Below are positions 1-34,264 of a stretch of 64,000 bases of DNA, piece by piece. The notes under the pieces were generated by a model. It was not told the origin of the DNA, did not search any database, and was given only the letters and a program-made list of their open reading frames with translations. Position numbers and translations under genes: made by a program. Position 1 is the first letter of the stretch. Each line of letters starts with the position of its first letter. Where the stretch lies: NCBI GenBank assembly GCA_051294905.1, contig CM119372.1, positions 7,132,001-7,196,000 of the forward strand, written 5' to 3'. This stretch comes from Botryllus schlosseri. Taxonomy: Eukaryota.

Positions 1-897
1 GCCACTTTGACCGAATGTAGCACTTTTGACCTATCCGGTCTCCATTCAGATGCGACCACGTGGACCTGGTGAAATGACTGTATAATTAATGATTGATTAG
101 GTCAATAATATTGATAATTGCGTGTATATTGCTATAAATTTTGTATCCTCTCAGTCCGACTTCCCATGTGCGGTATGTAATCAAAAGATATTGAACTCGC
201 CTATACACAGACTACTAAACTAAAAGAAGCGCACGATTCAAAATTGGTATTTCTTCACTGTTGAATAATAATTCGGGATGGGATGTCAGTTGCCCTGTGG
301 GGTCCAGATTACCACGACATAATTATTCGGTGCCAGCACTTTAGACACCCATACAAATACATTTATATCGAAGTTTACGGTCAACATAAGGGCAATCCTT
401 TTCGACCCATGTTTTCTCGCTGACGATCTTTTTGGCACTCTTCTATGAGGCCCATGTTGGCCCAAACTTCATATGTCTTCTTACCTCTTGGCGTGGTAAT
501 GGCCAACGCTTAGATTCCCACTCTCATAAATGATGCGTATTTTTTGAGAAGGAAGGGTGCCTAATAATCAAAACATTTATCTACATGAAATCGTGTACAG
601 TGCGAGCAAAATTAAAAAGTTGCAGAAATTGATATATACGTATATATTCTTCATTATGATTGCGTATTGCAGTTCAAGCATGTGCAGTAATGATTACGTC
701 ATTATGATTGCGTATAGTTGATTACTCTAGTTATTACGAGAGCGGCTTTGCTTGGTTTCAGTAACGCTGAGATATGATTACGTCATTATTGCGTAAGTTG
801 ATCGCCTTATTTGTTATTGTAGTTGAACCGAGTGCAAGGCAATATATAACGTGTAATATTTATTACATGATTATTCGCTGTACACTATAGATCGAAT

Positions 898-1179
898 ATG
901 TCCAAGATTACTGCTAGTGATATATACGTCATAATGGATCGGATTGACCCGATGAACTGGTATAGGTTTGCACGTGAAAAACTTGAGCTATCTGACAATG
1001 AAATTGCCGAATGCCAATACATGGATTGCTATACCTTAACTGAGCAACGATATCAAATGATACAGTTATGGATTCGTAAAAATGGTCGTTACGCTACGAT
1101 GAACAAACTTAAAGAATTAGTTTACAGTTGTCTGTATCAGATACCTTCGAATAGCAATTCAACTGTTCTGTTGGGTTGA
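898..1179 (+). CDS. Stand-alone death-domain (DD) protein, 93 aa, intronless
   Basis: ATG-initiated ORF with the DD pattern: I..W.RFAR.KL.LSD.EI..........EQ.YQM..LW..KNG..AT...L.E.V. TATA-like TATATAA at ~843 and AATAAA at ~1421. Confidence 0.75.
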   Translation: MSKITASDIYVIMDRIDPMNWYRFAREKLELSDNEIAECQYMDCYTLTEQRYQMIQLWIRKNGRYATMNKLKELVYSCLYQIPSNSNSTVLLG

Positions 1180-4100
1180 GAGGCATAACGTACTAAGAGG
1201 AAAATAATATTGTGTAGACTGGAGAATAATGAAGATGCTCTCAGAAGACTTCAATATCGGTTTATACGCAATCATATGCTCATGTATGCGAAGCTGGTAT
1301 TGCTTTTACATCGCAAATCAAAAAAAAAGATTCTGATATCAAGAAAGTATGCCAAGATCTGAAAGAAGCTCTACACCTTGTTCTGGACGATTAGTTAATG
1401 TGCTTGCCCGTTATTACTTCAAATAAACTGAACATGTGTATTTAATTGTGTAAAATGTGTTATAAAGGTCAGTCTACGGAAGTGAATAGACAAGTCTGGA
1501 CCTGTCTATATTACAGCATATTAGAGATAGATTGTGCAATAACCTCAAAATACGGAGAGTACTGAACCTTTGAGAAATGACCCAGCTATCCCATACCACG
1601 GACGGTCGGCGAGTTGGCAAAACAAGGTTTATCTCGGTGACCTACACAGAACACAGTGCTTCAGCTGCTCCAGTGTTCTCCGCAATTGGAGGTCTACAGA
1701 CGATGTATCTGAAATACACTTGACGTATCTCCCCGGATTGTTGTTTTCCTTGAGGGCTGTATTACTGGTTAGTATTTTTATGGATGATTGACAACCGCTA
1801 GCTGTCGCTATTGTATCATCTACATATGTGTTATACAAGGGGGCGGGCAACTCCTTCGGTCGGCGGGCCGGAGAAAATTAAGTACTTGGCATGCCGAATT
1901 GCTGAATCGATACATTATTCGCCCATTGATCCCCATATACGAGGGATAAATCGTATTTAATCAATGTATTTTAACGACCGCAATGTCACTGCAAAGCCAT
2001 ATCTCGCCGATAATAACGAAGACAATGTCGGTTTGAGAACAGCCTTGTTATACAGGCACCGTCGTGTCTCCTTCTCTCTAGTCAATGAACACACCGTTCA
2101 ACCCGTAAGATTTACAAATTACTGGATTGCTTTGAAACTACATTTTGGCTCGATAGATTTATGGGGGGCCTACTCTTTATCATTAGGATAGAAAGCGATT
2201 TCACGACATTTCTTTTAAAGCTACTTGAGTACTTCAAAGCTATATTCTGCTTTAGTCGAGTAGCGGACGAATACGATTTCACACGCATTCCAAAGTACAT
2301 CTTGTGAGAATGATGTACCACCACCGCCCCGGCTATTCTCGATACGACATGGGATCATTTGACTGTACTAAGATGGCCCCGAGATGGTCTAATGCGCTCG
2401 ATCTTTTTTCACGGTAGTTTGGATCGCTTTTACTATTCACATGTTTACACAGGCCCCCGTATCCACGTAATAGCCTGCACAATACCATCATAGCGTCATT
2501 TTTCCGATTTGGCCTCGTACCCGACTTTTGTAATCTAGGCCCACATTTTGCGTTACTCGTGGTGCTTTTTTGGAGATGTTGAGCTAACAAGGAGGACAAA
2601 CTGACAGAAAGAGAGTACATTTGGGTGAATTGGGTGACATATCTGGGAAATGGAGGACATATGCTCCCCTAAAGGAGGCCTCATGGTAACCCTATATTAA
2701 AATAGGAGGGTCGATGGTGATATCGAATGGATCGCATTGTGTTGCTGTCAACCCGAAAACGCGGGTTTTATCAAGCCGCAGATTGATGGCTGACATCGAT
2801 TGTGTCACGCTCGATTGAACACAGCTGATTTACGTACATTGTTGACCGGTAAAGTTATTGTCCTCGTTGTGTGATACGGTTTTTACCAATATCCTCCTTG
2901 AGGTGCCAAATCTGGTCGCACTAATAACACCTGTACAGACGAACCAAACAGAATTCCGCCAAAGGGTCGATACCAAGTCTCCTTGTACGTAAATTATTAT
3001 ACAACGACACCTATATTACAGCAGAACAATCTTGTCTGGACGGAGGAGGTCACGAAACATCTCCGGACCCGGGGCAGATTTCATCAGTTTTCAGCGAAGC
3101 CAGTCTGGATGCGGCCAAATGGACCTGAGAGTCGGATTTATGCTATATTTTACCCTCACAACATATGGAAATAACAGGACTTTACGAGCCAGCCGGATTT
3201 TTTGGACTTTGATTTAGCAACCCTATAGTCGCGGTGGATTCCGATTTCGAAATCTCCCCCTCTACTTTACACCTCACCTCAGGCTATAGATCGTATCAGG
3301 TATGATCTGTCACAATTCATTCCCATTATTGCACCACCGAGCGCGTTTCAGCCAAATAAGGTCAGTCCACCCCGATGAAGCGAGCTACCCCGATTCGTTT
3401 CGTGGACAATTGAAATAACATCGTACTCGCAGTTACCGAGCGGAAAATACAAGGTCCGAAGGCGTGACACAGCAATTCTCTGACGGTAACACTCTGCCGA
3501 GTCAATATATCCGTAGTATGATGCTGCAAATATGCTTGGAGGTGTTGGCATAACATGTGTTGAGGATATGTTTCGATCCTCGGCACAGCAGGATGGATCA
3601 CAAAACAAAATGGCGCTATGCAGTCTACGCGGCCGTATGTCATTTTCGACAGCAAGATTGATTATCGTGAATCAGGTCTTGGACAAAGCAACGATAGCAG
3701 CGCGTCGTATAATATCCGAGCTAAGTAGTTATAGTATACTATAAACCTGATCCTCGCACCGCCAACGAGCCGTAACCACAATTCTAATACCGCAACAATC
3801 CATACACAACTATACCGGGAGCTTTCAAAATACCAGTTGACGGGCTTCGAGCGATTGTCGACACGTGATCCGTGCTCTGTGACCCGTAACAATAGCGAGG
3901 GTTTTATTTACATGGGTGTTCTCGAGAACTCGAGTTGACCCGTATATTTATAACCATAACAGATCATCTCCCCTGCTACAATCTCGATCAATAACAAGTA
4001 GAGTACGTTTCCAGTATGACACAGGCCGTAGGCGTCACTCTGCACAGACAAACGTAAGTAACCGATAATCCGCTTGGACGATACATCTGCCCGGACGCGC

Positions 4101-5479
4101 GTTGACAATCCACCTAAAACACGCGCCGGGATCTCACATACGGACCCGAAGGAACAAATACTATACTATTGTTGTTCGTAGGGGGAAATATAACAATACT
4201 ATACTGTTGTTGTTCGGGGGAAATATAAAAAATTACTAGTAAGTGCATACCATTGAAATTAAATGTCAATCCATTGTTATTCGGGGGAAAATATAAAAAA
4301 TAATACACAAGTCTCGTGTCCAGAAGTCAGGCGAGGTAGAATCAGGAGTGGAAAAGTACAAGTAGAAGTACTCCAGTCTCATGTCTGAGTACAAAGGTCA
4401 ATCGAGATTCTTTGTTCGTTTTCTCTCAGTCAATCCCCCTTTTTTTTGATTGCAGCACACAAGGTCATAAAAGTATTGCTGCTAAATTGAGAATGAGCTA
4501 ATTCTTTCATTAATTATCATATTGATAATGTTTGTTTGTTTATTATAAATCGCGAATGAGCGGATTCCGCACATTTATCTTACTACTTGCGAATACCATG
4601 TGTAAGTCCAGCACAATTGTGGTATCCATCCGGGTTTAGTTAACACAATTTACGACACCGAGGTCGCCTCATCTTTCGTAAGACAACAAACCAACCAAGG
4701 TTTCAGGATATGTCCATGTCATAGCAATAAATCAGCTACTCCAACAACAGAGTACATATGTTTTCTAGTTACGGTGCTTACATCTTACACACAAATCAAT
4801 CTACTTTGCTAACAAAAAGTGCTGAGTCATCAAGTGATTGCCCTAGCAACAAAACAGCTAAACGTACTATCATACAAAATGGCCGTTATAGTCACCAACG
4901 GTACATGGTACAAGTAACAAGTCTCGAGAATCCAGTTATTGAAAAAACGTGAAAGTGTTTCTCCTGCGCCAAGTCGTTATGTTGACAAAAGCGTATATTG
5001 TAATATCATGATCGATTTGCATTCGTTGATCACAAAATGTCACTACTCTAAATAATTATTTTTCACTCAAACACAAACGCATACTTGTCACCATTCGTTT
5101 TCATCAAGCACGAGTTTGCGAAACCTACTTACTACGACATGAATTGTTATTTTTATGTTGTGTAAATAGGTAATAATTCATTTTAGTAACACTATATCAA
5201 CATCATCGAGTTGTGTGAATAGATTTACATGTGGTCTTGTGGTTTTAATCGAAGTACACAGCACGGTCTAATGTAGAGTCATCTCTATTGTACAGCAACT
5301 CGATAATCGAAATGCATGTATTAAAATTTAAACAGCGATCTTGTTTCATCACGCGAAAAATATGTTCACTATCGCGATACTCTGCACAGGACGTGTAAAT
5401 CCTTTTCACGCTCGTAATAGTATCCCAACGGCTACCGGCGACAACGTTTAACAACACCAACGACACTAAACATACGATA

Positions 5480-6005
5480 CCTACCCAAGTAAAATTACCA
5501 TTTTCACCTGGAGGTCAGTCGTTACCTGAGTAAAAATACCATTATTCTTTGGAGATTTATCGTTTAATCAGAGTAACAAAACATTTTCACTTGGGGGTCT
5601 ATCGTTTCCAAGAGTAACAAGCCCCCTTTCCTTTGGAAATCTATTTTTCCCTGGGTAACAAACCTTTTTCACTTACAAATATATTTTTCCCCCGGGTAAC
5701 AAACCTTTTTCGCTTGGAAATATATTTTTTCCTTGAGCAACAGACCATTTTTACTTGGAAATATATTTTTTCCCTGAGCAACAAACCATTTTCACTTGGA
5801 AATATATTTTTTCCCTGAGCAACAAACCATTTTCACTCGGCGGGTCGTCGTTTACCTGAGAAAAAATATCATTTTCCTTTGGAGATCTGGCGTTTACCCA
5901 TTGTAACAATACATTTTCACTTGGAAATCTGTCGTTTACCTGAGTACCAATACCGTTTTCACTTGGAAATCTATCTTTTCCCTGGGTAACAATACCATTT
6001 TCGTT
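5480..6005. repeat. Degenerate ~38-39-bp tandem array (about 13-14 units); mirrored at ~8295-8820
   Basis: Recurrent unit ~CCATTTTCACTTGGAAAT(A/C)TATTTTTCCCTG(A/G)GTAACAAA, with no unique spacers. Confidence 0.85.
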
Positions 6006-6029
6006 TTGAAAACTGACCACCACACCGGC

Positions 6030-6940
6030 CAATTTGATATTTTTTGTATATTGTTACAACAGACAGTGACAAAATATACACCAACAACAACTCCGATACA
6101 TTTGTGTAATCGCATACTCACTTGTTCTGCTGCATCCCATCAAAATTGACGGTTAGCCACACACACACACAATAACAATGCGCTATTTCGATATGACTGC
6201 GATGTCCGGGTTCGTGCTTTAGATTTTCCAGAATCAATCCGTCTAAAGTTGTAATCCCCCGACTTTGTTAACTGGTTGATACACGGATAACAATCTTCGG
6301 AAAATGGGGGAATGCATGCTACCCATCGTGCTAACGATTCCAGGTTACTTGTAAATAATTTTCTTGCTCACCCTATACAGATTATACGTACAGGGATATG
6401 TAGCGGTAATCGGTTTGGTCAATACATATCGCCCCATTTAGTATGGAATTACAAACCCAACACAGGTCAGTCCATAACCGGATCCGGATATTCAATGCAA
6501 AGCGATAAAGCAGAACCAATGACCAAATGTAATTAAACATGTAGATTCACAACCCTTGATTTTTTTTTTCGTCAAAAATGACAATACATATCGAATATAT
6601 TTTACGATTGTTCAACCCTACCAAGTATTCACGTAAATGTGGTTTATGACATTACATACAACGTGTCGGTGTACAACTGTTGGGTGTTTATGCACACATC
6701 GGTATGACCTATAGACAACATCATCATACCCTCCAGGACTTCGTTATTGCATCGCGAGTTCAATAAAATCAATTTTGTATATTCAATCGGTGGCATAGAC
6801 GACGGAAGGCTTGGAGATCCAATGTAAAATTCAGACAAACAAACGGGTATATTTGTCCATCTTGGTTATTCACTCAACTACCATTGGTGCTCTCGATACA
6901 GCGAACGGTACAGTATGCAACGCATATCATTAGAGTGATA
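6030..6940 (+). pseudogene. Decayed Polinton minor-capsid (penton)-like gene (mirror copy on - strand ~7360-8270)
   Basis: Multi-frame translation gives FCILL/TTDSDKIYTNNNSDTFV/LLHPIKIDG*/QCAI-DM ... VNVVYDITYNVSVYN ... LLHREFNKINFVYSI ... DKQTGIFVHL. This resembles the FYxxLxSxSxxxYPxNxxxxFxxxLxxPIxLxGxWExAL and YxxxDI...HxEFxxxxY...DxxG pattern of Polinton pentons. Confidence 0.5.
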
Positions 6941-7318
6941 TATCCACAGGTAAATATGGGGCCTGGCCACAATAATTGTATCGAGATTCAACCCAGATTA
7001 CTATCCGTTCACTGATTCACTCACGGTTTCAGCAACTAGTAACAACACAAGATAGACACGACTGGAATTACTAATATTTGTAATGTTTATGATAAGTGTC
7101 GTTACCGATCGTTCACTAAGTCGCTATGAATATTCGAAAAATCGGATATCACTACTCTCAACACCAGTGATTCGGTTTAAGTTTGAAATCGATTTGATAA
7201 TGTAATCCAATGTGTGTTTCTGTGGGATCTGCTAACCTTTACGAGGGAGTGCTGTCTCTTTGACACATGAAACAATTATTATCAACCACACCTTGCGTGC
7301 ATCGATTTGTCGGCGTCG

Positions 7319-9711
7319 TACAATTATTGTGGCCTGGCCCCATATTTACCGGTGGATATATCACTCTAATGATATGCGTTGCATACTGTACCGTTCGCTG
7401 TATCGAGAGCACCAATGGTAGTTGAGTGAATAACCAAGATGGACAAATATACCCGTTTGTTTGTCTGAATTTTACATTGGATCTCCAAGCCTTCCGTCGT
7501 CCATGCCACCGATTGAATATACAAAATTGATTTTATTGAACTCGCGATGCAATAACGAAGTCCTGGAGGGTATGATGATGTTGTCTATAGGTCATACCGA
7601 TGTGTGCATAAACACCCAACAGTTGTACACCGACACGTTGTATGTAATGTCATAAACCACATTTACGTGAATACTTGGTAGGGTTGAACAATCGTAAAAT
7701 ATATTCGATATGTATTGTCATTTTTGACGAAAAAAAAATCAAGGGTTGTGAATCTACATGTTTAATTACATTTGGTCATTGGTTCTGCTTTATCGCTTTG
7801 CATTGAATATCCGGATCCGGTTATGGACTGACCTGTGTTGGGTTTGTAATTCCATACTAAATGGGGCGATATGTATTGACCAAACCGATTACCGCTACAT
7901 ATCCCTGTACGTATAATCTGTATAGGGTGAGCAAGAAAATTATTTACAAGTAACCTGGAATCGTTAGCACGATGAGTAGCATGCATTCCCCCATTTTCCG
8001 AAGATTGTTATCCGTGTATCAACCAGTTAACAAAGTCGGGGGGATTACAACTTTAGACGGATTGATTCTGGAAAATCTAAAGCACGAACCCGGACATCGC
8101 AGTCATATCGAAATAGCGCATTGTTATTGTGTGTGTGTGTGGCTAACCGTCAATTTTGATGGGATGCACCAGAACAAGTGAGTATGCGATTACACAAATG
8201 TATCGGAGTTGTTGTTGGTGTATATTTTGTCACTGTCTGTTGTAACAATATACAAAAAATATCAAATTGGCCGGTGTGGTGGTCAGTTTTCAAAACGAAA
8301 ATGGTATTGTTACCCAGGGAAAAGATAGATTTCCAAGTGAAAACGGTATTGGTACTCAGGTAAACGACAGATTTCCAAGTGAAAATGTATTGTTACAATG
8401 GGTAAACGCCAGATCTCCAAAGGAAAATGATATTTTTTCTCAGGTAAACGACGACCCGCCGAGTGAAAATGGTTTGTTGCTCAGGGAAAAAATATATTTC
8501 CAAGTGAAAATGGTTTGTTGCTCAGGGAAAAAATATATTTCCAAGTAAAAATGGTCTGTTGCTCAAGGAAAAAATATATTTCCAAGCGAAAAAGGTTTGT
8601 TACCCGGGGGAAAAATATATTTGTAAGTGAAAAAGGTTTGTTACCCAGGGAAAAATAGATTTCCAAAGGAAAGGGGGCTTGTTACTCTTGGAAACGATAG
8701 ACCCCCAAGTGAAAATGTTTTGTTACTCTGATTAAACGATAAATCTCCAAAGAATAATGGTATTTTTACTCAGGTAACGACTGACCTCCAGGTGAAAATG
8801 GTAATTTTACTTGGGTAGGTATCGTATGTTTAGTGTCGTTGGTGTTGTTAAACGTTGTCGCCGGTAGCCGTTGGGATACTATTACGAGCGTGAAAAGGAT
8901 TTACACGTCCTGTGCAGAGTATCGCGATAGTGAACATATTTTTCGCGTGATGAAACAAGATCGCTGTTTAAATTTTAATACATGCATTTCGATTATCGAG
9001 TTGCTGTACAATAGAGATGACTCTACATTAGACCGTGCTGTGTACTTCGATTAAAACCACAAGACCACATGTAAATCTATTCACACAACTCGATGATGTT
9101 GATATAGTGTTACTAAAATGAATTATTACCTATTTACACAACATAAAAATAACAATTCATGTCGTAGTAAGTAGGTTTCGCAAACTCGTGCTTGATGAAA
9201 ACGAATGGTGACAAGTATGCGTTTGTGTTTGAGTGAAAAATAATTATTTAGAGTAGTGACATTTTGTGATCAACGAATGCAAATCGATCATGATATTACA
9301 ATATACGCTTTTGTCAACATAACGACTTGGCGCAGGAGAAACACTTTCACGTTTTTTCAATAACTGGATTCTCGAGACTTGTTACTTGTACCATGTACCG
9401 TTGGTGACTATAACGGCCATTTTGTATGATAGTACGTTTAGCTGTTTTGTTGCTAGGGCAATCACTTGATGACTCAGCACTTTTTGTTAGCAAAGTAGAT
9501 TGATTTGTGTGTAAGATGTAAGCACCGTAACTAGAAAACATATGTACTCTGTTGTTGGAGTAGCTGATTTATTGCTATGACATGGACATATCCTGAAACC
9601 TTGGTTGGTTTGTTGTCTTACGAAAGATGAGGCGACCTCGGTGTCGTAAATTGTGTTAACTAAACCCGGATGGATACCACAATTGTGCTGGACTTACACA
9701 TGGTATTCGCA
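7319..9711. repeat. Right arm of the 2.39-kb inverted repeat (338-bp spacer 6981-7318)
   Basis: Reverse complement of 4588-6980, with only a handful of substitutions and two 1-bp homopolymer indels seen by eye. Confidence 0.97.
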
Positions 9712-11300
9712 TACTGTACACATACAAACTTTTGTGTAAACAACTCTGATGTTTCTGTTGGTACTAGTGCTGTGTTGAACTATTTGGTTCTTAAGACACA
9801 TGAACATCCATTCAGACAATAAAGGCCTTGAGGTATCGAAACAGTTTTGAAAGCGTCACCAATCATTGTACAGGTTCGTAGCATGGGAATGTCGAGTATT
9901 TTCGTATACCATGAATATATTTCATCTACTTTTGGTAAGAAATGAGTTGCGTGGGGTAATCATACACAACCTACAAAAGTTAAACTTGTAGCGTTTGATT
10001 GTCTACTTTTTATCAATGCCTTTGTGATGTTAAAAGACGGCTGAGTTTGCATTTACATTAAGCGGAGAAACTCAAGTAATAAATTTTACTCGTTTGAAAA
10101 TATCGATCAATGGAGTAACACTATCAATATGAGTGGTATATTATTTTTCGCGATATGCAACCAATCTTCTAAGCATAACTTGTCAAAAATTTATCATGTC
10201 GTAGAAACGCCGGTTGTTACGAATTCGAAAGAAATGTACTTCGATTATCACGATGATGGAAATTACGATCAACGCAGTATTTCGAAGTGGTATGTTCAAC
10301 AATCACTAAATGTTGGTTAGTTAAACGATACAGTTACAAGTTTACCGAAATCTTGATTTACAAATAACAGCTTGATGATGTAAAGCTCAACCACTCAAAT
10401 GTGATCATTGTAAAGTATTTGACACAAACAAAATATCGAATGGAGACCATTACATTGGTTTCATTTCGAGTGAGTGAAAATTGTTTTCTGGTGGCCAGGT
10501 AGGATGCATTTGACAAACATCGTACACATTGTTTCTTCGTGATGGTAACGACTTTCAGTGGCTTGGTTTCATGTCGGGAATTATTATTTGAGGGTTCAAG
10601 AACAATCAATACTACAAATGAACAACAATGCAAAACACGTTTAGCAAATAACAGTGTAGCAAGTACTTTTTTGATATTACGATTGTTGTGCACCAGACAT
10701 TTCTAACTGAATTGAATGCATCTAGCAAACATATTCCAATTTACTTTTGTAATGATCAAAGTATGTGAAATGGTGTGAACGGATTAGGTATTATGCAAGC
10801 GGCGGTATGTCAATTCACCTAGTGTGATATCTTGACATCGGATAATGTGCGAAAGTGTTTCAATTCTCACTGCTGATTACGATGATAAAGTATTGTACCG
10901 GTTATTGTTTAACAAAGGAAATTGTTGTTTCATCTTTAGTCTTGGTTAGTGGAGACAATTACATTTGTAAAATATTTTCTGATATCCGCGATACGCAGGG
11001 TGATATGTACCAAGGTGGAATAATTTTCCATTCAAGAACATTTCAGACACTCATAGTTTTACAGCTTAATATGTTAATAACATTGGTACTGAAAAGTTTG
11101 TTGCTGTCATAACTTTCAACACAACGCCGGGTCTAATTAACGCGAATAATTTAATAATCAAGTCATGATAGACCATTATAAAATCCCATATGTTAAATCG
11201 ATGTGACAATCCTTATGTTTACATCACGATAATTTTCGATATAACACCAGCGTTCGATTGTAAGAAATGAAGTCGCAACTACGTCGATCAGACTTTCAAA
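8830..11300 (+). pseudogene. Highly decayed protein-primed family-B DNA polymerase (pPolB) remnant
   Basis: Degenerate motifs in the correct order across frameshifts: YK*QLDDVKL (ExoIII YCxxDV, ~10360), RELLFEGSRT (xxGGR, ~10575), KYFFDIT..P (motif A, ~10665), A*YVNNIGTEKF (motif B KxxxNSxYGKF, ~11065), TSVRL (TxxAR, ~11245), TAC GTC GAT-CA GAC (YVD[T]D, motif C with 1-nt loss, 11280). Confidence 0.5.
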
Positions 11301-11779
11301 TCTCGTATACTCAAACATATTATGTTAAGCTCAAGTCGCCTGCAGCGGGTAGTAATTACTTTTGTCTTACAAAATATATCGAGTAATAATTACTTTGTCT
11401 TGTAGAATATACCGCGTAGTAATTCCTCTTTCTTACAGAATAGTAACGACTTTTAAAGTTGAATAAAAAATGAAGTGTAGGGATTGTACTTTGTACTTGT
11501 TAAATCTTACCAGCGATATCAAGTTCTGTGGCAAACTGATTACTAAAATTTCACCGCGTGAGCGATCGGTATGGTTATGACACCCAGTCGTGAAAGATGG
11601 TTATGACCGAGACATTATCTTGTCAGCGATCGCGGGGTTTTGCAAACTATTTCACAGCTATTTGAAGTGTTAATTTGTGACCGTTGTTATTGTTGATATT
11701 CGAATCACCGTCTACGCCGGCTCTGTGGTAAACTAAATACCAAAATATTACCTTGCAAGTGATTCCTAGACTTAGCAAA

Positions 11780-12966
11780 CTATTTCACACCTTTTTTGCT
11801 GAAAGTACGACATGCCGCCCGCAGTCTATACCGAAAGTACGAATCACGACCGCACCCATAAGACGCAATAGCCGCATGCGACCCATGCCGTAAGAAATAA
11901 GAGCCGCTCGTCACCCCCGCCATAAGACGCAATAGCCGCTTGCGACCGCACCCATAAGAAATAAGAGCCGCCGCCATAAGAAATAAGTGCCGCTCGCCAC
12001 CCCGGGTTTCGTGTTAGCATCAATAGCCGCTCGCCACTCCCGCCATAAGACGCAATAGCCGCATGCGACCGCACCCATAAGAATACATGGCGAGTCACCA
12101 CAGATCCCGTAAGAATACACGACAGGCGAATCACCGCCACCACCTGTAGCAAAAAAGGCGAGTCACGACCACGAGTTTTCACGATATACACATTAACAAA
12201 GATTCATTCACATGACTATTTACTTGATACATATTCAACACCGGTCGAGTGATCCCTATACCGAAAAGGGTCACCGGTTCAAGACGAGTTTCGAGGCACC
12301 GGTCGAGTGATCCCTATACCGAAAAGGGTTACCGGTCGAGAGATGGCTATACTAGCACCGGTTGAGTGATCCCTATACCGAAAAGGGTCACCGGTTCAAG
12401 ACGAGTTTCGAGGCACCAGTCGAGAGATCCCTATACTCATAAGGCACCGGTCGGGTGGAAGGGGGGTCTGAAAGGGTCACCGGTTCAGGACGAGTTTTCG
12501 CGGCATCGGTCGAGCGATCCCTATACCAACCCAGGCACCGATTTAGCGATAGCGGGGTGTCGTCAACTCACAGATTTCAACCGCCAAAGTCATCAGCGAG
12601 GGGTCACCTCATCACCGCATCCATAAGAACACATGGCACCTCACCGCCGAGAGGGGGGGGTCAAAAGGGTCACCGGTTCAGGACGAGTTTTCGCGGCACC
12701 GGTCGGGTGCACCCATAAGACACAATAGCCGCTTGCCACCCCCGCCATCAGACATAAAAGCCGCTTGCCACCCCGGGTTTCCCAGCCGCTTGCGACCCCG
12801 CCCATAAGAAATAAGAGCCGCTTGCCACCCCAGCCATAAGACGCAATAGCCGCTCGCCACCCCCGCCATAAGACATAAGAGCCGCTCGCCACCCCCGGTT
12901 TTCCAGCCGCTCGCCACCCCGCCCATTAGAGCCCCTGCCACCCCCAGACCGATCTACTATACTACT
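11780..12966. repeat. Modular GC-rich subterminal/TIR repeat region of element 1
   Basis: Repeated CCCATAAGA, GCAATAGCCGC and CGCCACCCC modules (~29 bp), plus ~59-60-bp tandem units ACCGGTCGAGTGATCCCTATACCGAAAAGGGTCACCGGTTCAAGACGAGTTTCGAGGC at 12240-12530. Confidence 0.85.
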
Positions 12967-13152
12967 GTGGTAGGCCTACTATCACTCTTGCAGAAATAAT
13001 TTCCCGAATGACACAGTGAATCTCCGGTCCGATAGCCTTTTCTACACTGAACACAAACTGCTGTTTCTTTTTGACTAAGCACTATCTAAAAAAACAAGCA
13101 AGGTAATTGAAACAGACCATAGTAAGTAAATAATAACATAATGAGTTATAAC

Positions 13153-14171
13153 TAGGGCCATTTAAAGTCATTAAAGTCATATTTTTTTCTATGCATCAGT
13201 AAGCCGTGAAATCAATTTTAACGCAAAAACCGCATCCATATGGGGTGTATTAAGAAAGTTATAAAGTCATATAAAGTCACATTTTCCTGGTTAGGTCATA
13301 TTTGAGTTATAAAGTCATATTGTTGTATACTTTAAATAAAAAGTGCCAATTGAAGCAATTACGCACTAAGAAAGTAAGGCAATTTCTGATTGAACGAAGT
13401 CAAACTGTAGGGTTAGGCTACATAACATTACAGTCGCAGACCTATGAGGTCACACATTGCATTATGAGGTCACACATTGCATTGTGTTGCTACACAATCT
13501 GTTTTACTTCTGTACACTGAAGTGGGACGTCGACTTCCACAAGTGAAAGAAATAGTCAACGCACGGGAAGCTGAAGGAGTTATTGTAAAGGGCGTCAAAG
13601 ATTCAGTGAACGATCCAAAGTTGACGAGTCAGTTAACAGAAATATGCCTCCACTACAAAATATTTAAAACTTGATACTGAAAATGGAAAGTTGTGCGTAC
13701 ACTATCAAAGCGGCTGCTAATGCTGATCTAAATGCCCACGATTTCGGAAAAGATCCGCTTGAGCTCAAAAATTACATTAAGAAGCGATTGGACAAAAACG
13801 ATGTGAAACAAATTATGGAGCTACAAAGACAAGACATTTCAGCAGCGCTGTATGCAAAACTGCAGAAGTGTCAACCAACATCAACGTCTGTGGAGAGCTC
13901 ATTTTCCTTACATAAGTCATTTTTACGTCCAAATCGTAACTTTAAAGACTCCAACATTCCACACTACATGAAACTGTACTACAAAAGTGGTTTAAAATAA
14001 AAATGGATGTGTAATTACAGTTATGTTGTTCCTGTTTTACTCGTCAGTTCCATGAGTGACGTTGGTTACATGTAAAAATACACGATTTTCGCATAAAGTC
14101 ATATAAAGTCATATTTTCCCAAAAATAAAGTCATATAATGGATTTTTTAAGGTCATATAAAAATGGCCCTA
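13153..14171 (+). mobile_element. Non-autonomous hAT element with transposase C-terminal remnant (13477-14000)
   Basis: TIR TAGGGCCATTT/AAATGGCCCTA; exact 8-bp TSD GTTATAAC (13145-13152, 14172-14179); subterminal AAAGTCAT repeats; PTSTSVESSFS...LRPNR hAT dimerisation-like motif. Confidence 0.85.
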
Positions 14172-15936: not shown

Positions 15937-18900
15937 TAATTCTATTTTATTTTCATATATTCCTTTTACATCTATATCCTGCTTTTCTGTTGGTAATTCA
16001 TTAGTTTCTTGCCTTTTGTTCATATTTTTGTGTTAACTTTTTCCCCAATTTCAATTTTTACCCCTTGGCACGTTTTTGGTCATAACTTTTTTCCCCAAAG
16101 TAAAAAAAGTGACAAAACCTATCATTGAAAAGCTGGTAAAATTATCTTTCCAACGGTATATAATACGTCTTTATAAGAATTTTTTCTAGGTTGACCCATT
16201 TTAGACCAAATTCTACAGGACTACAAGGGGTGCGAGCGACTTTTATCAACATGGCGTCACAATGGCGTTTTCCAACGTAAAAAAGTAACTTTATGATGGT
16301 AACATGAATTTTCTGACAACAGTGATTTTAACACAGGTGCCGCGAGAGGTTTGCCGGTGAGCCGTGACTTGAAGTGTGGTAACAAATGTTTTATTCATTT
16401 TTTTTAATCGAAGGATTATTTTACAAAATGTACGTGATCTAAGAATCGTCCCTATGCCACGAACCAATTATCAGGTCATCCTTAGTAGCATGCGTTATGA
16501 TTTCATAGTAGAGTTAGAGATTACGCAAATCGATAGGCCCTAATTTTTCTAAGCCCGTCCGAAAGTGTTTCGTACACGATCCTGGTGTGTTACGACCACT
16601 GAGCTGGTGGTTACGAGTCGACCAGGTGATAGGCAACCAAAGCGGAGGCACCCGGCGTACGATTGGATCAATGGACTGGACAATTTCTAGACCTCTAATT
16701 TTCATTTTAAAGCAGTGGTTCCCAACCTTTTTGTCTTCATTCCCACTTCAGATTTATTCCGAGCCTTCATTCCCCATCAGGACCGTAAACGCGCGAAGCG
16801 CGAAAAATTTATATAATTCATGTTCGATTCGGTCAATATGATCGGGTTTGGCCTATAATTTGCTATAAATTTTTTATCACCTCTCTGCTCACGTAATCAG
16901 ATCTACCGGTAAAGCTGAGTGAGGTGTCTTGGAAAAGGTACGATCCCTAAATATGAATTGAACATCTTCGGGCAGACCCGTTGATATATTGACTTCGTTA
17001 CATGATGCTATTTCGTGACCTCCTATATAATAATGCTATGTCAAAAGATATGGAAACTGCCAAAAGTAAAAGGCACGCACGATTTCAAATTTGTATTGCT
17101 TTACTGGCAAATAATTTTTCCCTGCACGATGGCAATTATTGTAGAGTTACCATATTTTTGTGAAGCAAATTCCGGACACTCTTTAGCGCCAACTAGCGGA
17201 TTTGAAAATGAGGTGACATATTGTCTGTCAATATGACGTCACACTAGCAAAGCATTGCCCATCGACTGTATACAGCAGTGGTAATGGTGCGCGAAGGTCT
17301 TCCAGGTGGTACGCGAGAAGATTCTGTTTTTTTCGACTGAAGGGATTTATTAGTTCAAGGGTTGATCCTGAGTTTTTGAAGCCGCCGTCGTCGAGGTAAG
17401 GTCGTCGTTGTTGGTAGTGGTTATCCCACCAGTGACGGCCTACTGGGAAGAGATCTAGTCGTAAAGCATTGGGATTCGTACCCAACCAAATTCTGTTTTA
17501 ATATATTTGACCACAAGAATTTCAAATGGATCCACTATAGAAATCATATACTGCGCCCTAACATGCACCTCAACATGGTGGAAACATTTTGACCGCCTTC
17601 AGCGCGCTTATCTTATGTAGGTGGTACGCGAGCACTGCATAAAACCTCGAAATGGTACTTGGGAGAAAAAAGGTTGAGAACCACGAACCACTGGTATACG
17701 GGAATGCAGTGGAACATATAGGTCTTGGATTGGGTCATCTGTAATGTGGGCTCTGGTGATTTCTGTTATGTTCGTGCATTTTACGTTGGTATCGTTTGTT
17801 TCTTATTTGTCTAGGATTAGTAATTACCGCCAATCATTATTTCCTCGTGTGTCGTGAGTAGTAGTATATATCGGTCGCATGACGCAATGGTGTTCTTATG
17901 GGTGCGGCGGTGACGCGCCTGGAAACTCGTGGTGGTGATGCGCCGTTTTAGACCCCCCTCTCGGCGGTGATGCGCCATGTGTTCTTATGGATGCGGTCGT
18001 GATTCGCCTTTTCGGGTATGGGCTGCGGCGGTGATTCGTATTGAAAACTCGTGGTGGTGATTCGCCTTTTTTGGTATAGGCGATGGCGGTGATTCGCCTG
18101 TCATGTATTCTTACGGGATCTGTGGTGACTCGCTATGTATTCTTATGGGCGCGGCGGTGATGTGCCTGAAAACTCGTGGTGGTGATTCGCCTTTTTTGGT
18201 ATAGGCGGTGGCGGTGATTCGCCTGTCATGTATTCTTACGGGCTCTGTGGTGACTCGCCATGTGTTCTTATGGGTGCGGTCGTGAATCGTACTTTTAGGT
18301 ATAGACATCTCTTACATATCGTACTTTCGGGTATAGGCATCACTTAACAGGAAATTCACTAATCCGCAGTGCATTGTGTGATTTTGAAAACCAGATGTTG
18401 GCGGTTGTATTTTGACCTGTGTGACCAACTAAATACGTCCGTTTTGGAAATTCGGAGCGCGCACTATCGCATCGATTATCACACTAATACAGTCGGTGCT
18501 ATTACATTCAGCAGTATTCAGTATTCAGCAGCGACACGAAAAGCGACCAACAAATAACCGCGCTCGTAAATTAACACTTCAAAAAGTGTAAAATAGTTTG
18601 CAAAACCCCGCGATCGCTGACGAGATAATGTCTCGGACATAACCATCTTTCGCGACTTGGTGTTACAGGTATATCGATCGCTCACGCGGTGAAATTTTAG
18701 TAATCAGTTAGTCACAGAACTTGATTTCGCTGGTAAGATTTAATAAATACCGACTAACAGAACCATCAGTGTGGGTAACTTGAATAGCAACAAATTGTCA
18801 CTTATTTCCGCCCTAACCCTAATCCTTTGTGAGATTACCACATACTCAAATAGATGCGAAATAAGTGTGAAATCATACAATCTTTTTAGGAATATTACTT

Positions 18901-19849
18901 GACTTGACCAACTTTCGGCTCTGTTTTCGATTTCCACACAGTCGCTATAAGTTTCCACGCTTCTAGAATAGGATTGACTTTAGACACGTCATAAGAATCA
19001 TGGTAATATTCAATCAATGTGTCAATTTACCAACTCGAAATCTCACTCGCGCTACAAGTGAAGCTGAATTGTATCCGAATATGCTAATTTACCGCCGCTC
19101 AGCGCCAAACTGACTCTGTATAACAATATTACGCATGCGCGGTATTTCAGATTGGTATAATGTCATTATCAGCAAATATTTCACCAACTTAATCGTTTAC
19201 CTTTACACGAATCAAAGCTAAAGTTGAAACGACAATATCAAGGTTTGAAACCTTACAACTCGATCAGTGATTTTTTATTCAACTGTAAAATAAGTTAATA
19301 TTCTGTAAGACACAACAATTATTGCTCGGGTAATGTGACATTGAGATTACCAAATTGTATATTGAGTATACGAGATTTGAATGTTTGACTAGTGATAGAC
19401 TGAAAAATATCTCGCAAGAGAATCCATGTGTTATGATGCAGGCTATCGTGACACAAACAAATTCAATACGGAATATCTATTAACCAATTGGCCCCCCAAC
19501 CCGAGATTCGAGTGTTCGATCAGTGCTCGATAAAAATTATTTTCATGTATACCAACTCTTGCGTTGTGGTGAAGGGTGTTACGGTATGAGCAAAGTTTTA
19601 ATAAACACCATTATCAGCACCCCGATTGAGAAAAAACTTGATTCGTATGTATGAAAAGTGTTTGATTGGGAATTTATCTATTTCTCACAATCCCGCCACT
19701 GTTTTGAGGACTGGTATTATATGATTATTAAATAATATTTCACAAACTCAAGCCACTGTTTTTGAGGAATGGTATTATATGATTATTAAATAATATTTCA
19801 CAAACTCAACCCTAATCGTAAGACTTGAGAGAAATCACGTATTCGCTTG

Positions 19850-20140
19850 ATGATAACACGCATGCGACAAAAAAACATCACCGCGATTTTGTAAACTGAT
19901 CATACTAATCAGGGTATTTACCATCACGCTTCTAGAATAGGATTGACTACTAAAGGTAAATTCAGATAATCCAAAATGAAATATCTCAACTTTGACATAG
20001 TCTGAATTGAAATAGATTGACAAGCATACCTACCAACTTTCACCCACTCACATTTCGAAATTATGCACACATTGATTTGAAACAAGTAATGTAACATTAC
20101 AACTCTATTCCCGATCCAGCTTTCCGTTTGTCAAAGAGAC
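19850..20140 (-). pseudogene. Decayed packaging-ATPase (A32/FtsK-HerA-like) remnant; further copies at 22455-22620 (+) and 63690-63960 (-)
   Basis: Walker-A-like GGA AAG -CT GGA TCG GGA ATA (GK[S/T]GSG[K]) at ~20108-20127. Walker-B and downstream-like KYFILDYL...FRH(R/H)TITFLIIRTQ, clearest in the 22.5-kb and 63.7-kb copies. Confidence 0.45.
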
Positions 20141-20195
20141 ATTTTAACATCTTACCATACTCAAAAGAATTATTCACAACATTAACAAGTGTTTA

Positions 20196-20482
20196 AAATC
20201 TAGTTTTCACTTACTTGACTATATCACTACAACTCGCAAACTTGAATTAATTCATCCTGATGGTATTCGTATGACTGATAATTTTTATTCAACTGTAAAA
20301 GTCGTTACTAATCTATAACACAAAGTAATCACTACTCGGAAAATCTAGTTTTCACTTACTTGACTATATCACTACAACTCGCAAACTTGAATTAATTCAT
20401 CCTGATGGTATTCGTATGACCGATAATTTTTATTCAACTGTAAAAGTCGTTACTAATCTATAACACAAAGTAATCACTACTC
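20196..20482. repeat. Tandem duplication of ~145 bp (a ~59-bp tandem pair also lies at ~19694-19809)
   Basis: AAAATCTAGTTTTCACTTACTTGACTATATC...AAGTAATCACTACTC occurs twice, near-identical. Confidence 0.9.
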
Positions 20483-23400
20483 TGTGCATACGACAAGATT
20501 TGAATACTCGGTCTATGATAGCAATTCGCACAAGTGAATCCAAGACATCGGGCTGTGAGAAAATCTTCACCACATTGACCTACTGCCTTATCCAACGTAC
20601 TCAAAGTAAGTAGACACGATTTCAGTAATATACACAATCATTACAACTGTAAACTATACTAATCAATCTCGGTCGTATTCACATATCACAGACCTGTGTT
20701 TTTTTTTTATTCCTTCAGTAAAATGTAGTCGTATTAATCTGACGATAACGTGCACACACAAGAAACATCACCGCGATTTTATAATTGATCACCCGACTAA
20801 GGGTACCAATAAACATCACCGGGAATTTTATAAACTAGCCATATTACTCAATACATCTATCAATATCAGAACGCAAGGTCCAATACCGAAAGAAAAGTAC
20901 TTTTTCAGTTTAATAAAAATCAAATCATTCGTCTTCATCTTGTGAATTGTCACACACCCAACTAATATCATACCAAACAGTTATTTACAACAACCAAGAC
21001 ACAGAAAATTTGTTTTGGACGTTTCGATTTTATTACTGGATGTACTGATCCCTTCGCTTCATACAATCTGGATTTGAACACCATCGAACCTTTGGTATCT
21101 ATCGTTTTGCTGGATACGAATTATGTTAGTAGACTATCTTGGGTTATGAACTCAGTGTGTTAGCGGTCATTCAATATTTTGTAGTATCAACTAGTTACTT
21201 TGTAGGATACGAATGATCATCCTCACAACTCTTACAAAAGTACGAAGGATATTTACATCACACAAAGTAGTCGACTTTACTCGATATCCTCACACTACGA
21301 AACTAAATGATTGCTTAGACTCTACAAACTGTTTTTGATGTCGTTTTTTACACGAATGGTCACACATCTAAATATTCAAATAATCCAACACACAACTATA
21401 GTACTTACAGAAATATCATAGTTCTTGTAACAAAGTTGTATGAGTATAATGTTTATCGTAAGTCCTACACAGTCATATCCATCCGAGTTTGACTTTTAGA
21501 AAACATTATACCGACATCGCGACATCTTTCAAAATTAAAACCACGGTGACCGCTTGAGATACCTACCAACGATATCACAGTAATACAGTTACTTCCACAA
21601 AAGAGTATGTATTCGACTTACTTTCCACAAATCTAACGCACAAAACAATTTACTTTGCTAACGAAAAGTGCTGAGTCATCATATGATTGTCCTCGCAACA
21701 ATACAACTAAAACATACTATCATACAAAATGGTCGTTATAGTTTGCATACCAACGATACATCGTACAAGTAACAAGTCTCGAGAATCCAGTTATTCAAAA
21801 AACGTGAAAGTGTTTCTACGCCAAGTCGTTATGTTGACGAAAGCGTATTTCGTAATATCATGATCGATTTGCATTCGTTGGTCACAAAATGTCACTACTC
21901 TAAATAATTATTTTTCACTCAAACACAAAAGCATACTTGTCACCAATCGTTTTCATCAAGCACGAGTTCAAGAAGCTTACTACGACATGAATTCATATTT
22001 TTATGTTGTGTAAATAGGTAATAATCAATTTTAGTAACACTATATCAACATCATCGAGTTGTGCGAATAGATTTACATGTGGTCTTGTGGTTTTAATCGA
22101 AGTACACAGCACGATCTAATGTAGAGCCATCTCTATTGTACAGCAACTCGGTAATCGAAATGCATACATTAACATTTAAACAGCGATCTTGTTTCGTCAC
22201 GCGAAAAATATGTTCACTGTCGCGATACTCAGCACAAGACGTGCAAATCCTTTTCACCCTCGTAATAGTATACCAACGGCTACCGACGACAACGTTTAAC
22301 AATACCAACGACACTGGAAACACTGAAACCACAACACTTAACCGAGTAAAAATACATTTTCCTTTGGCTACATGACACTTACCCGACTAAACAATATCAT
22401 TATCACCTGGAGATCCACCGTTACCCGAGTAACAAAACCATTTCCATATCAACCATACCAACCATACCAACTTTCAATCCAGTCAATGTCAAAGTCCAAA
22501 TATTTCATTTTGGATTATTTGGATTTACCTTTAGTACATCCCGCGAATGGATTCCGACACCACACTATAACATTCTCAATAATAAGGACTCACGGATTTT
22601 CAATCAACAATACCTGCATTTTTTGGTAATGTTAGAGTTGGCAAATGATTAGTTGCGTGTTTTTTGTTAAGCGTTTGATTTCGCAGTAATAAATACAACG
22701 ATTGTATGTGCATACTTGCAATTCTTGATTCTCATTGAGTTAGTTTGTATTGATTCTATAGGCGTGAAAACAGCAGCGCGGAATGTGCGAATAATCCGAT
22801 GCGGCCGAATGTTAGCGTCAGTAATATTCAGGTTACGTTTGATTCGATAGATCGTGTTAAAAGGATTTCTCAAAGGATTTGAGTTGTGTCGAATCAACAC
22901 ATTCAAATACGAATCAACTTGATTTGTGTATAGTGAGTTTCATTTCAAGTTGACAAACTAACACATTGATTGAATATTTTCATGGATCTTATCACGCAAC
23001 TAAAGTCAGCCACTATTCCGGAGGCGTGAAACATATAGCGATCGCGGGCAAGTGTCAAATTGTTGGTTTTCGAATCACCGTCTGCGACGGCTCTGTGACA
23101 AACTTATTGCGGAAATATTACCTTGTGAGCGATCGGTATGTCTGTAACACCAAATCATGAGCGATCGCTATGTCTGAAGCATTACCCTGTGAGTGGTCGT
23201 AGGATTTTAAAATTATTTCACACCTTTTTGAATAAGCGTTCACTTCACAAAGGATTAGGGTTAGAGCGGAAATAAGTGACAATTTGTTGCTATTCAAGTT
23301 ATCGACACTGGCGGTTCTGCTAGTCGTTACTTATTAAATCTTACCAGTGAAATCAAGTTCTGTGACAAACTGATTACTAAAATTTCACCGCGTGAGCGAA

Positions 23401-24602
23401 CGGTATGGCTATGACACCAAGTCGTGAAAAAAGACTATGTCTGAGGTGTTATCTTGTGGGCGATCGTAGGATTTTACAAATATTTCACACCTTTTTGAAG
23501 TGTTAGTATGTGAACGCGGCTATTGTTGGATTTGAATCGCCGTCTACGCCGGCTCTGTGGCAAACTAATTACCAAAATATTACCAAGCTAGTGATTCCTA
23601 GATTTAGCAAACTATTTCACACCCTTTTTTGCTGAAAGTACGACATGCCGTCGCAGTCTATACCCGAAAGTACGAATCACCGCCGCGGCCATAAGAATAA
23701 CGATATATTATACCACACTCACCGTAAACGCGGAACGTTAGCATGTCACCGCACGTATACCAAAAAACATTAGCATGCCACCACGAGTTTTCCCGTTAGC
23801 ATGCGACCGCCGCCTATACCCGAAAACGTTAGCATGCGACCGATCCCTATCTCTGTAACGCTATCATGTCACCCGAGCCATTATCTTGTCAGCGATCGCG
23901 GGGTTTTGCAAACTATTTCACACATTTTTGAAGTGTTAGTTTGTGAACACGGTTATTGTCGATATTCGAATCGCCGTCTACGCCGGCTCTGTGGTAAACT
24001 AATTACCAAAATATTACCTTGGAAGTGATTCCTAGATTTAGCAAACTATTTCGCACTGACTGGATTAGTGTAATAATCGATAGTAGCACACAGCTGCATG
24101 GGAAACAATTCAGCGCGCAGGTCATTCGAAATATAGGTCGCACGCGCTGTGTAATCCTCTTGCACAACAAGCCGCGTTTCCGTCTGCGCGGTTATTGTTG
24201 GTGACTATTCAACACCACGCGAGAGATGGTTGAAAGTGCGAATCACGACCGCACCCATAAGAATACATAGCGAATCACCACAGATCCCGTAAGAATACAT
24301 GACAGGTGAATCACCGCCGCAGCCTATAGCAAAAACGGCGAGTCACGACCACGAGTTTTCACGGCGAATCACCGCCGCAGCCTATACCCGAAAAGGCGAA
24401 TCACGACCGCATCCATAAGAACACATGGCGCATCACCGCCGAGAGGGGGGTCTAAAAAGGCACATCACCACCACGAGTTTCCAGGCGCGTCACCGCCGCA
24501 CCCATAAGAACACCATTGCGTCATACGACCGATCTATACTACTACCGTCGTGCTTTGTATTTTTACCCTGTGTTCTGTTGTCTCGTAGTCTTTCGTTTAA
24601 CT

Positions 24603-33886: not shown

Positions 33887-34264
33887 GTCAAGACCCTGAG
33901 TTTGACGAACTGGAAATTCGTGAAAACGCGGAGATCGTTCGCGCTATTTATATGGCATTCGATGGCTTACCGTTAACTCGCAATGAAATTCGCGACGCGA
34001 CGCTGAAAGACAAAACCATGGAACTAGTGAAATTATCTGTCACTCATGGTAATTGGAATGCAAAGACGCACATTGATGATTTTTCTTGGTTTTCGACTCG
34101 CAAACATTCGCTTTCTCTGCACGAAGACATAGTCATGCTCAATATTGATGGTTTTCAGCGCGTAGTAATTCCGCAGTCACTTCGCTCACGAGTCTTATCA
34201 TTGTTGCACGAAGGACATTGGGGTATCGCGAAAATGAAGCAGATGGCTCGACGTTACATCGCAT

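What the first reader, a model, noticed from the sequence alone, without database searches (positions are those of the whole stretch)
4588..9711. 5.1-kb fold-back: 2.39-kb near-identical inverted arms inside a defective Polinton
Seen: arms 4588-6980 and 7319-9711 are >99% identical around a 338-bp spacer. The left arm breaks abruptly in the middle of the pPolB ghost, with no TIR or TSD. The duplication is far younger than the coding decay. Established: protein-primed strand-displacement replicons (adenovirus-like) can generate snap-back or inverted defective genomes by template switching, and long inverted repeats yield hairpin dsRNA. Inference: a captured snap-back defective Polinton genome, and/or a hairpin locus producing small RNAs against the whole family.
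Basis: partly seen in the sequence, partly recalled or inferred. Interest (0 to 1): 0.75.

Follow-up and report, generated by a model that had tools for sequence, protein, structure and literature searches.

The report
Interrupted copy of palindromic Polinton-ended element
The mirror-image stretch is in the sequence and is likely the middle of an 11.6-kb, gene-less, hairpin-shaped jumping element with the ends of virus-like Polinton transposons, whose left half was likely cut short when a second such element inserted into it.

Summary
Arms confirmed: 4588-6980 and 7319-9711, 7 differences in 2,394 columns, 338-bp spacer. The reading needs revising. No pPolB remnant is detectable: a profile of 58 Polinton pPolBs found nothing, although it still detects a heavily degraded control gene. 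The left break is not featureless: the Polinton end motif ACTACT (4582-4587) abuts it exactly. The right arm runs on to a second ACTACT end at 12966, related to an element with a proven 6-bp target duplication. Contigs from three studies show arms and spacer as repeats, and one study holds a diverged copy running from arm into spacer. Best reading: the centre and right half of a predicted 11.6-kb palindromic, non-autonomous Polinton-ended element, with its left arm interrupted by another element. The scan has already reported this palindromic family many times elsewhere in this genome; my literature searches found no description of it. Both arms share alleles rare in the family, so arms are re-mirrored along lineages. 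No contig shown bridges the 4587/4588 junction, and small RNAs were not tested.

The parts
4588..6980 (-). Surviving inner 2,393 bp of the left arm of element A (mirror of 7319-9711); includes a 41-bp tandem array at 5497-6002
6981..7318 (.). 338-bp central spacer (loop) of element A; no ATG ORF of 55 aa or more, no unusual fold (z=1.1), no Rfam match; present as diverged multi-copy sequence in 4 of 4 runs laid
7319..12966 (+). Complete right arm of element A, 5,648 bp: mirrored part to 9711, unpaired part 9712-11490, GC-rich subterminal repeats (32-58 bp units) 11490-12945, terminus ACTACT at 12961-12966
   Evidence: contigs of the family continue past the mirror point with the 9712+ sequence (loose end at 4588, 51 contigs in X1)
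12967..12972 (+). GTGGTA, predicted right copy of A's 6-bp target-site duplication; left copy not in the window
   Evidence: sequence; status inferred from relative C
870..4587 (.). Right part of element B, a different repeat family ending in ACTACT at 4582-4587. Carries a Death-domain stretch (922-1122, E=1.6e-8), a BIR remnant (1630-1728, E=1.7e-4 to 6.8e-4, below Pfam's cut-off) and a faint A32-type packaging-ATPase trace (about 3523-3627, minus strand, E=0.2-0.44, not significant). Left limit not determined
   Evidence: multi-copy
4588..4593 (+). TGCGAA, predicted right copy of B's 6-bp target-site duplication inside A's left arm
   Evidence: sequence; prediction, left copy lies outside the window
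17857..24546 (.). Element C, older relative of A: same type of ends, 304-bp terminal repeats at 93%, further inverted matches at 74-89% out to about 2 kb, 6-bp TSD GTCGTG; homologous empty site at 36177-36330; 21377-22444 matches 8711-9786 at 81%

Best explanation
The two near-identical arms and their 338-bp spacer are likely the centre of an almost wholly palindromic, gene-less mobile element (A) with Polinton/Maverick-type ends, predicted to be 11.6 kb long, whose left arm was likely interrupted at 4588 by the insertion of a second ACTACT-ended element (B). SHOWN: the arms; A's right end at 12966; B's end motif abutting the left arm; no detectable pPolB; multi-copy arms and spacer in other samples; alleles shared by both arms that are rare in the family. 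INFERRED: an ancestor arose when one end of a Polinton-type replicon was copied back on itself. Both ends then carry the same origin, so a helper Polinton's pPolB and integrase could copy and insert it in trans, through the racket-like single-stranded intermediate proposed for Polintons, in which the whole strand folds back. Copying or mismatch repair in that folded state would keep the arms alike while the loop drifts. This copy inserted recently (0.3% between arms); B then inserted into its left arm and pushed the outer 3,255 bp upstream of the window, or that part was deleted.
For: (1) ACTACT ends exactly at 4587, about 3e-4 by chance; the motif is the common Maverick end, 5'-(AGT)2//(ACT)2-3' with 6-bp TSD (PMC8097293, passages). 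(2) The right arm runs unbroken to a second ACTACT end at 12966 whose subterminal region matches elements C and D at 71-93%; C has a 6-bp TSD proven by an empty site in the window. (3) 2 x 5,648 + 338 = 11,634 bp, at the low end of the 11.6-18 kb palindromes that earlier scan notes report for this genome (unchecked notes). (4) In one search all 30 of 30 bins are covered in 4 of 4 runs (3 studies). X6 record 31 (6951-7135, 8 substitutions and 1 gap) runs 30 nt of arm into the spacer, and record 32 (7190-7334) runs from the spacer 16 nt into the other arm, so a diverged copy has the same loop join. (5) Family contigs continue past 4588 with right-flank sequence (51 contigs in X1), so B is the intruder. 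(6) At 6 listed arm sites (5303, 5424, 6439, 6461, 6573, 6677) at least 97% of X1's summed depth differs from a base that both arms share, and at 8 spacer sites at least 94% differs, against 7 arm-to-arm differences in 2,394 columns. (7) No pPolB, with controls.
Against: A's left end, B's left end and both left TSD copies are outside the window, and no whole genome is held, so the full palindrome is predicted, not seen. No listed contig bridges 4587/4588; the tables were cut (32 pieces shown, 81,135 hidden). The two X6 records fall short of the tool's 31-nt bridging rule, are separate contigs and come from one study. Summed contig depth is not copy number; inner arms are about 2 to 9 times deeper than the spacer in X1, X2 and X5, so other loops share these arms. 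B's Polinton core genes are not shown statistically (Pox_A32 E=0.2; a 3-row ATPase profile gave no hit there; PHROGs best E=0.067). No helper element, integrase or replication intermediate was observed. The shared rare alleles fit a recently inserted minor subfamily as well as conversion in place. The clustering of all 7 differences near the loop (p about 0.008-0.014, after the fact) could also come from assembly or polishing.
Confidence: 0.72

Rival explanations
1. One-off chromosomal inverted duplication (two template switches during repair or replication) inside a dead repeat; no palindromic family involved.
For: Homology to copy C runs 75 bp past the right arm's end, so the right side looks original. 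The arms are very young. No left terminus of A is in the window.
Against: A diverged contig from another study crosses the arm-spacer join (X6 record 31). The outer break falls exactly on an element end motif. The aligned arms diverge at once at both joins, so no microhomology is visible.
Confidence: 0.08
2. Assembly or read artefact: a chimeric or fold-back read, amplification chimera, or mis-join between repeats.
For: No raw reads of the source individual were examined; no listed contig bridges 4587/4588; the outer 1,542 bp are identical and 2 of 7 differences are homopolymer lengths.
Against: The loop join exists in contigs of another study. The arms carry 5 substitutions between them. A chimera has no reason to stop on ACTACT. 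Element C shows the same architecture in an old, diverged state.
Confidence: 0.07
3. One reading: a snap-back defective genome of an autonomous Polinton, broken within its pPolB gene and captured at this locus.
For: Polinton-type ends; fold-back geometry; a possible ATPase trace to the left (E=0.2). A remnant older than about 40% DNA divergence would escape my profile.
Against: No pPolB signal. The left neighbour has its own, different terminus. The loop is a family feature.
Confidence: 0.05
4. A is a foldback-type non-autonomous DNA transposon moved by a transposase unrelated to Polintons, which happens to share the end motif and the 6-bp TSD.
For: A has no Polinton gene at all; tandem subterminal repeats inside long inverted arms are typical of foldback elements (recalled). 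Membership rests on ends and TSD only.
Against: (AGT)2//(ACT)2 with a 6-bp TSD is the described Maverick signature; earlier notes report autonomous Polintons with the same ends in this genome (not checked here).
Confidence: 0.05
5. Host-retained hairpin locus that makes small RNAs against the repeat family (may coexist with the best explanation as a side effect).
For: A transcript through both arms would form a 2.4-kb duplex (follows from the sequence).
Against: Every intact family member would form a longer hairpin, so this damaged copy needs no special role; no promoter, transcript or retention across individuals is shown.
Confidence: 0.03

Closest known systems
Polinton/Maverick elements (polintoviruses); vertebrate set of Barreat and Katzourakis 2021, PMC8097293 (three passages read)
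   Same: 5'-(AGT)2//(ACT)2-3' ends; 6-bp TSD (shown for relative C, predicted for A); size of the order of 10-20 kb
   Different: No pPolB or other core gene detected in A; the inverted repeat is predicted to cover 97% of the element instead of its ends
Butterfly Polintons with about 2-kb gene-bearing TIRs and polB-less Polinton-related insertions (bioRxiv 10.1101/2025.02.07.637071, passages)
   Same: Expanded inverted repeats; mobility after loss of polB
   Different: Those keep capsid and protease genes in the TIRs and a long unique middle; A has a 338-bp loop and no detected gene
Snap-back / copy-back defective viral genomes (abstract opening of PMC6140465 in the search listing; adenovirus panhandle repair recalled)
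   Same: One end copied back to give a hairpin-shaped, helper-dependent replicon
   Different: Here the form is integrated and amplified as a repeat family; its origin by copy-back is inferred
Foldback (FB-type) DNA transposons (recalled; one passing mention seen in PMC6431247)
   Same: Long inverted arms with internal tandem repeats, little or no coding sequence
   Different: FB elements depend on a Mutator-like transposase with longer TSDs (recalled); A has Polinton-type ends
Palindromic Polinton-ended family noted by this scan elsewhere in the same genome (e.g. e1-7803354, e1-7803439, e1-7804265)
   Same: Ends, size class, near-identical arms, short loop; one note reports a Polinton nested in such a palindrome
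   Different: This copy is interrupted on the left, has a shorter loop (338 bp against about 0.9-1 kb) and no cargo gene was detected; three sequence look-ups found no look-alike note, so shared subfamily is not shown

Membership tests
Autonomous Polinton/Maverick (element A) | Protein-primed DNA polymerase B gene | tested here: not met
   0 hits at E<=1 in 852 six-frame chunks; 0 tblastn hits for 120 pPolBs; control detected up to 35% substitution
Autonomous Polinton/Maverick (element A) | Integrase, ATPase, protease and capsid genes | tested here: not met
   No such Pfam family in six frames of 1-12000 or in chunks of 6900-8300 and 8800-11600; longest ATG ORF overlapping 6000-13000 is 82 aa; sensitivity for these genes was not controlled
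Non-autonomous Polinton derivative (element A) | (AGT)2//(ACT)2 terminal motif | tested here: met
   ACTACT at 12961-12966; related ends in C and D; only the right end is in the window
Non-autonomous Polinton derivative (element A) | 6-bp target-site duplication | tested here: inconclusive
   Met for relative C (GTCGTG, empty site at 36177-36330); A's left flank is outside the window
Non-autonomous Polinton derivative (element A) | Terminal sequence shared with an intact helper Polinton of the same genome | not testable with these tools
   No genome held; collection scans with window patterns found nothing
Palindromic Polinton-ended family (scan notes) | Multi-copy, with inverted arms around a short loop | tested here: met
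   Spacer and arms covered by diverged contigs in 4 of 4 runs; arm-spacer join in X6; support for the join is one study, 30 nt
Palindromic Polinton-ended family (scan notes) | Palindrome extends to both termini | not testable with these tools
   Left arm stops at 4588; the remainder would lie upstream of the window
Polinton/Maverick (element B) | End motif plus core genes | tested here: inconclusive
   ACTACT end met; ATPase only at E=0.2; no pPolB in the part inside the window; Death and BIR cargo
Hairpin small-RNA locus | Transcript across both arms and 21-30 nt RNAs from the arms | not tested

The most novel reading that the evidence does not exclude
A is a member of an undescribed class of palindromic satellites of Polinton viruses whose arms are actively re-mirrored from the termini inward each time the folded single strand is copied; the perfect outer 1.5 kb and the 7 differences crowded beside the loop in this copy are a footprint of that end-initiated correction, and so direct genomic evidence for the racket-shaped replication intermediate proposed for Polintons.
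Probability: 0.3. Interest if true: 0.68.

Novelty: new variant of a known kind. Interest (0 to 1): 0.4.

Why it matters
How Polintons replicate rests on a proposed folded single-stranded intermediate (as summarised in PMC4196379, passages). A family of whole-element palindromes with Polinton ends records in its arms how often and from which end the halves are corrected, which makes that model testable from sequence alone. This locus adds two data points: rare alleles shared by both arms, and a loop-proximal cluster of differences. As a single locus it is a damaged copy of a family that this scan has already reported many times, so its own added value is modest.

Tried and rejected
pPolB ghost: rejected at the sensitivity reached; motif-like words seen by eye in 8800-10800 did not score. 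The 3 phmmer hits (P0001-P0003) and P0004 are short unnamed predicted proteins with no assigned family; three look like frames of other copies of these repeats. B's ATPase: PDB search 1 hit at E=1, small profile none in that region, PHROGs none significant. Whole genome: not held. Pattern scans for other copies: 0 in viral contigs, 0 and 0 in metagenome contigs. The search for related loci with one pPolB: none confirmed; with a 20-row alignment: 9 distant loci, whose ORFs gave no tblastn hit on the window at E<=0.01. Spacer fold: no better than shuffles (84 of 100 fold as well). Rfam 4000-13500: 0. Earlier-finding look-ups near the locus and by sequence: nothing. Literature: seven searches listed no paper whose title or abstract opening describes whole-element palindromic Polinton derivatives; I saw listings only, except passages of four papers; subscription papers, Repbase entries and supplements were not seen.
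Full report
OBSERVATION. Self-comparison of the window gives one long inverted match, 4588-6980 against 9711-7319: 2,394 columns, 99.7% identity. A global alignment finds 5 substitutions and 2 single-base indels in homopolymer runs. All seven lie at left-arm positions 6130-6964; the outer 1,542 bp are identical. The clustering is unlikely under even spacing (p about 0.014, Fisher p=0.008; both chosen after seeing the data). The spacer is 6981-7318. At both joins the mirrored sequences diverge at once, with no microhomology visible. The spacer folds no better than shuffles (84 of 100 fold as well), and 4000-13500 has no Rfam match.

THE pPolB CLAIM FAILS. Six-frame Pfam scans with stops read as X found no polymerase family in 1-12000 or in 30 and 20 shorter pieces. 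One frame of 8401-11400 against 1.84 billion representatives gave 3 short unnamed proteins; another frame gave none among 4,944 candidates. To test directly, I found Polinton-type polymerases in viral contigs with a recalled motif pattern and used one to retrieve 120 listed relatives, all carrying PF03175. A profile of the 58 of 120 that are 1,150-1,520 aa long gave 0 hits at E<=1 on 852 six-frame chunks of the window; tblastn with all 120 gave 0 hits at E<=1e-3. As a control, one intact polymerase gene (no listed profile row has its length) was randomly degraded. It gave 14, 6, 4 and 0 chunk hits at E<0.01 for 15%, 25%, 35% and 40% substitution with 1-3% indels. The window's best in 1200-13000 was E=10. 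A remnant more decayed than about 40% cannot be excluded. No ATG frame overlapping 6000-13000 exceeds 82 aa.

THE LEFT BREAK IS AN ELEMENT END. ACTACT occupies 4582-4587, ending on the base before the arm. The motif occurs 19 times in the window, about 3e-4 per position. 5'-(AGT)2//(ACT)2-3' with a 6-bp TSD is the most common end of vertebrate Mavericks (PMC8097293, three passages read). The right arm does not stop at 9711: its homology to a third copy runs on to 9786, and the sequence continues through GC-rich subterminal repeats to another ACTACT at 12961-12966. That subterminal region matches two more elements in the window, C (17857-24546) and D (from 62484), at 71-93%. C is flanked by GTCGTG on both sides and its empty site is present at 36177-36330, so ends of this type are real insertion ends. 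C is itself a worn, shortened near-palindrome (inverted self-matches at 72-93%). The end at 4587 differs from the A, C and D ends after the first seven bases, so it belongs to another family, B. B's part in the window holds a Death domain (E=1.6e-8), a BIR remnant below Pfam's cut-off, and a faint A32-type ATPase trace (E=0.2-0.44) that I could not raise to significance. B's status as a Polinton derivative is therefore likely, not shown.

OTHER SAMPLES. No whole genome is held. Of 24 listed runs, 20 hold part of 3600-8200. I laid 4 of them (X1, X2, X5, X6; at most 3 samples, 3 studies; contigs only) on 2600-7360 at 90% likeness. All 30 bins are covered in all four. Summed depth in X2 is about 10,000-36,000 over 2600-3870, 223,000-1,154,000 over the outer arm, 42,000-84,000 over the inner arm and 9,000-13,000 over the spacer; the tool warns that this is not copy number, but arms and spacer are clearly repeats. 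In X1, 51 contigs leave the alignment at 4588 and continue with the sequence that follows the right arm, so the family runs on without B. X6 record 31 covers 6951-7135 with 8 substitutions and 1 gap: 30 nt of arm, then spacer. Record 32 covers 7190-7334, 16 nt into the other arm. A diverged copy in another study thus has the loop join. Both records are short of the tool's 31-nt rule for bridging. No listed piece bridges 4587/4588; only 32 pieces were shown and 81,135 hidden, and none of the runs is known to be the source individual. Among the 40 difference rows shown (185 hidden), six arm sites differ from at least 97% of X1's depth although both arms agree there, and eight spacer sites differ from at least 94% (8 of 338, 2.4%; a ninth site at 72%). 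The arms are thus far closer to each other (0.3%) than this copy is to the bulk of the family.

EARLIER NOTES. Before the look-up my leading reading was a local inverted duplication (55%). Genome-wide notes describe many 11.6-18 kb palindromic, Polinton-ended, gene-poor elements in this genome, one with a Polinton nested inside (e1-7803439) and one internally deleted copy (e1-7804265). They changed my reading and led me to look for termini. They are unchecked AI notes. I tested ends, multi-copy status and absence of pPolB here; I could not test copy number, helpers or full palindromy. Sequence look-ups returned no look-alike note.

MECHANISM. Shown: arms, loop, A's right end, B's end at the break, no detectable pPolB, family-level loop join, shared rare alleles. 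Inferred: A was 2 x 5,648 + 338 = 11,634 bp and palindromic to both ends. Polintons are proposed to replicate through an extrachromosomal single strand folded into a racket-like structure and copied by the protein-primed polymerase before integration (PMC4196379, two passages). An element made by copying one end back on itself has two equal origins and folds along its whole length; a helper could copy and integrate it, and correction within the folded strand would keep the arms alike. Gene conversion between arms in the chromosome is the alternative for that step, and a recent insertion from a minor subfamily fits the allele pattern equally well. B then inserted into the left arm; the model predicts TGCGAA beside B's other end, 3,255 bp of outer left arm, and GTGGTA before A's left end, all upstream of the window. 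A deletion that removed them would leave the same picture inside the window.

RIVALS. Local inverted duplication 0.08, artefact 0.07, captured snap-back genome broken in pPolB 0.05, foldback transposon of another class 0.05, retained small-RNA locus 0.03. Expression was not tested.

KNOWN AND NEW. A fails membership of autonomous Polintons (no pPolB or core genes) and meets the end-motif test for a non-autonomous derivative; TSD and helper are untested for A itself. The nearest published case I read is butterfly Polintons with about 2-kb gene-bearing TIRs and polB-less mobile relatives (bioRxiv 10.1101/2025.02.07.637071, passages). Seven searches listed nothing describing whole-element palindromes; the library lacks most subscription papers, and I saw no supplements or Repbase entries. 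Adenovirus panhandle repair and foldback transposon features are recalled, not read.

VERDICT. Real sequence feature, misread in detail: an interrupted copy of a palindromic Polinton-ended family already found repeatedly by this scan. New variant of a known kind; interest 0.4.

Noticed in passing
window 17857-24546: Element C: 6.7-kb older, internally shortened relative of A with a 6-bp TSD (GTCGTG); a homologous empty site lies at 36177-36330 in the same window.
   Followed up: partly
window 62484-64000: Left end of a further family member (D), starting AGTAGT, 71-87% alike to A's subterminal region.
   Followed up: partly
window 52275-54452 (-): Uninterrupted 725-aa frame with astacin protease (E=4e-42), three thrombospondin-1 repeats and FG-GAP repeats; single-exon, so possibly a retrocopy or mobile cargo.
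   Followed up: no
window 922-1122 and 1630-1728 (+): Death-domain and BIR (apoptosis-inhibitor) remnants inside element B; earlier notes report similar cargo in this genome's Polinton derivatives.
   Followed up: partly
window 4047-4243: Contigs in X1, X2 and X5 skip 195 bp here, with 17 other letters in X2 and X5, so this copy of B differs from common copies by a replacement.
   Followed up: no
window 28775-35732: Gypsy-type pieces (zinc knuckle, reverse transcriptase, RNase H, integrase) with a 668-aa hAT-dimerisation frame (31305-33311) between them.
   Followed up: no
L004, L006, L026: Three very long IMG/VR contigs (339-733 kb) carry a Polinton-type pPolB stretch with stops around it, in a run of other long frames.
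   Followed up: no
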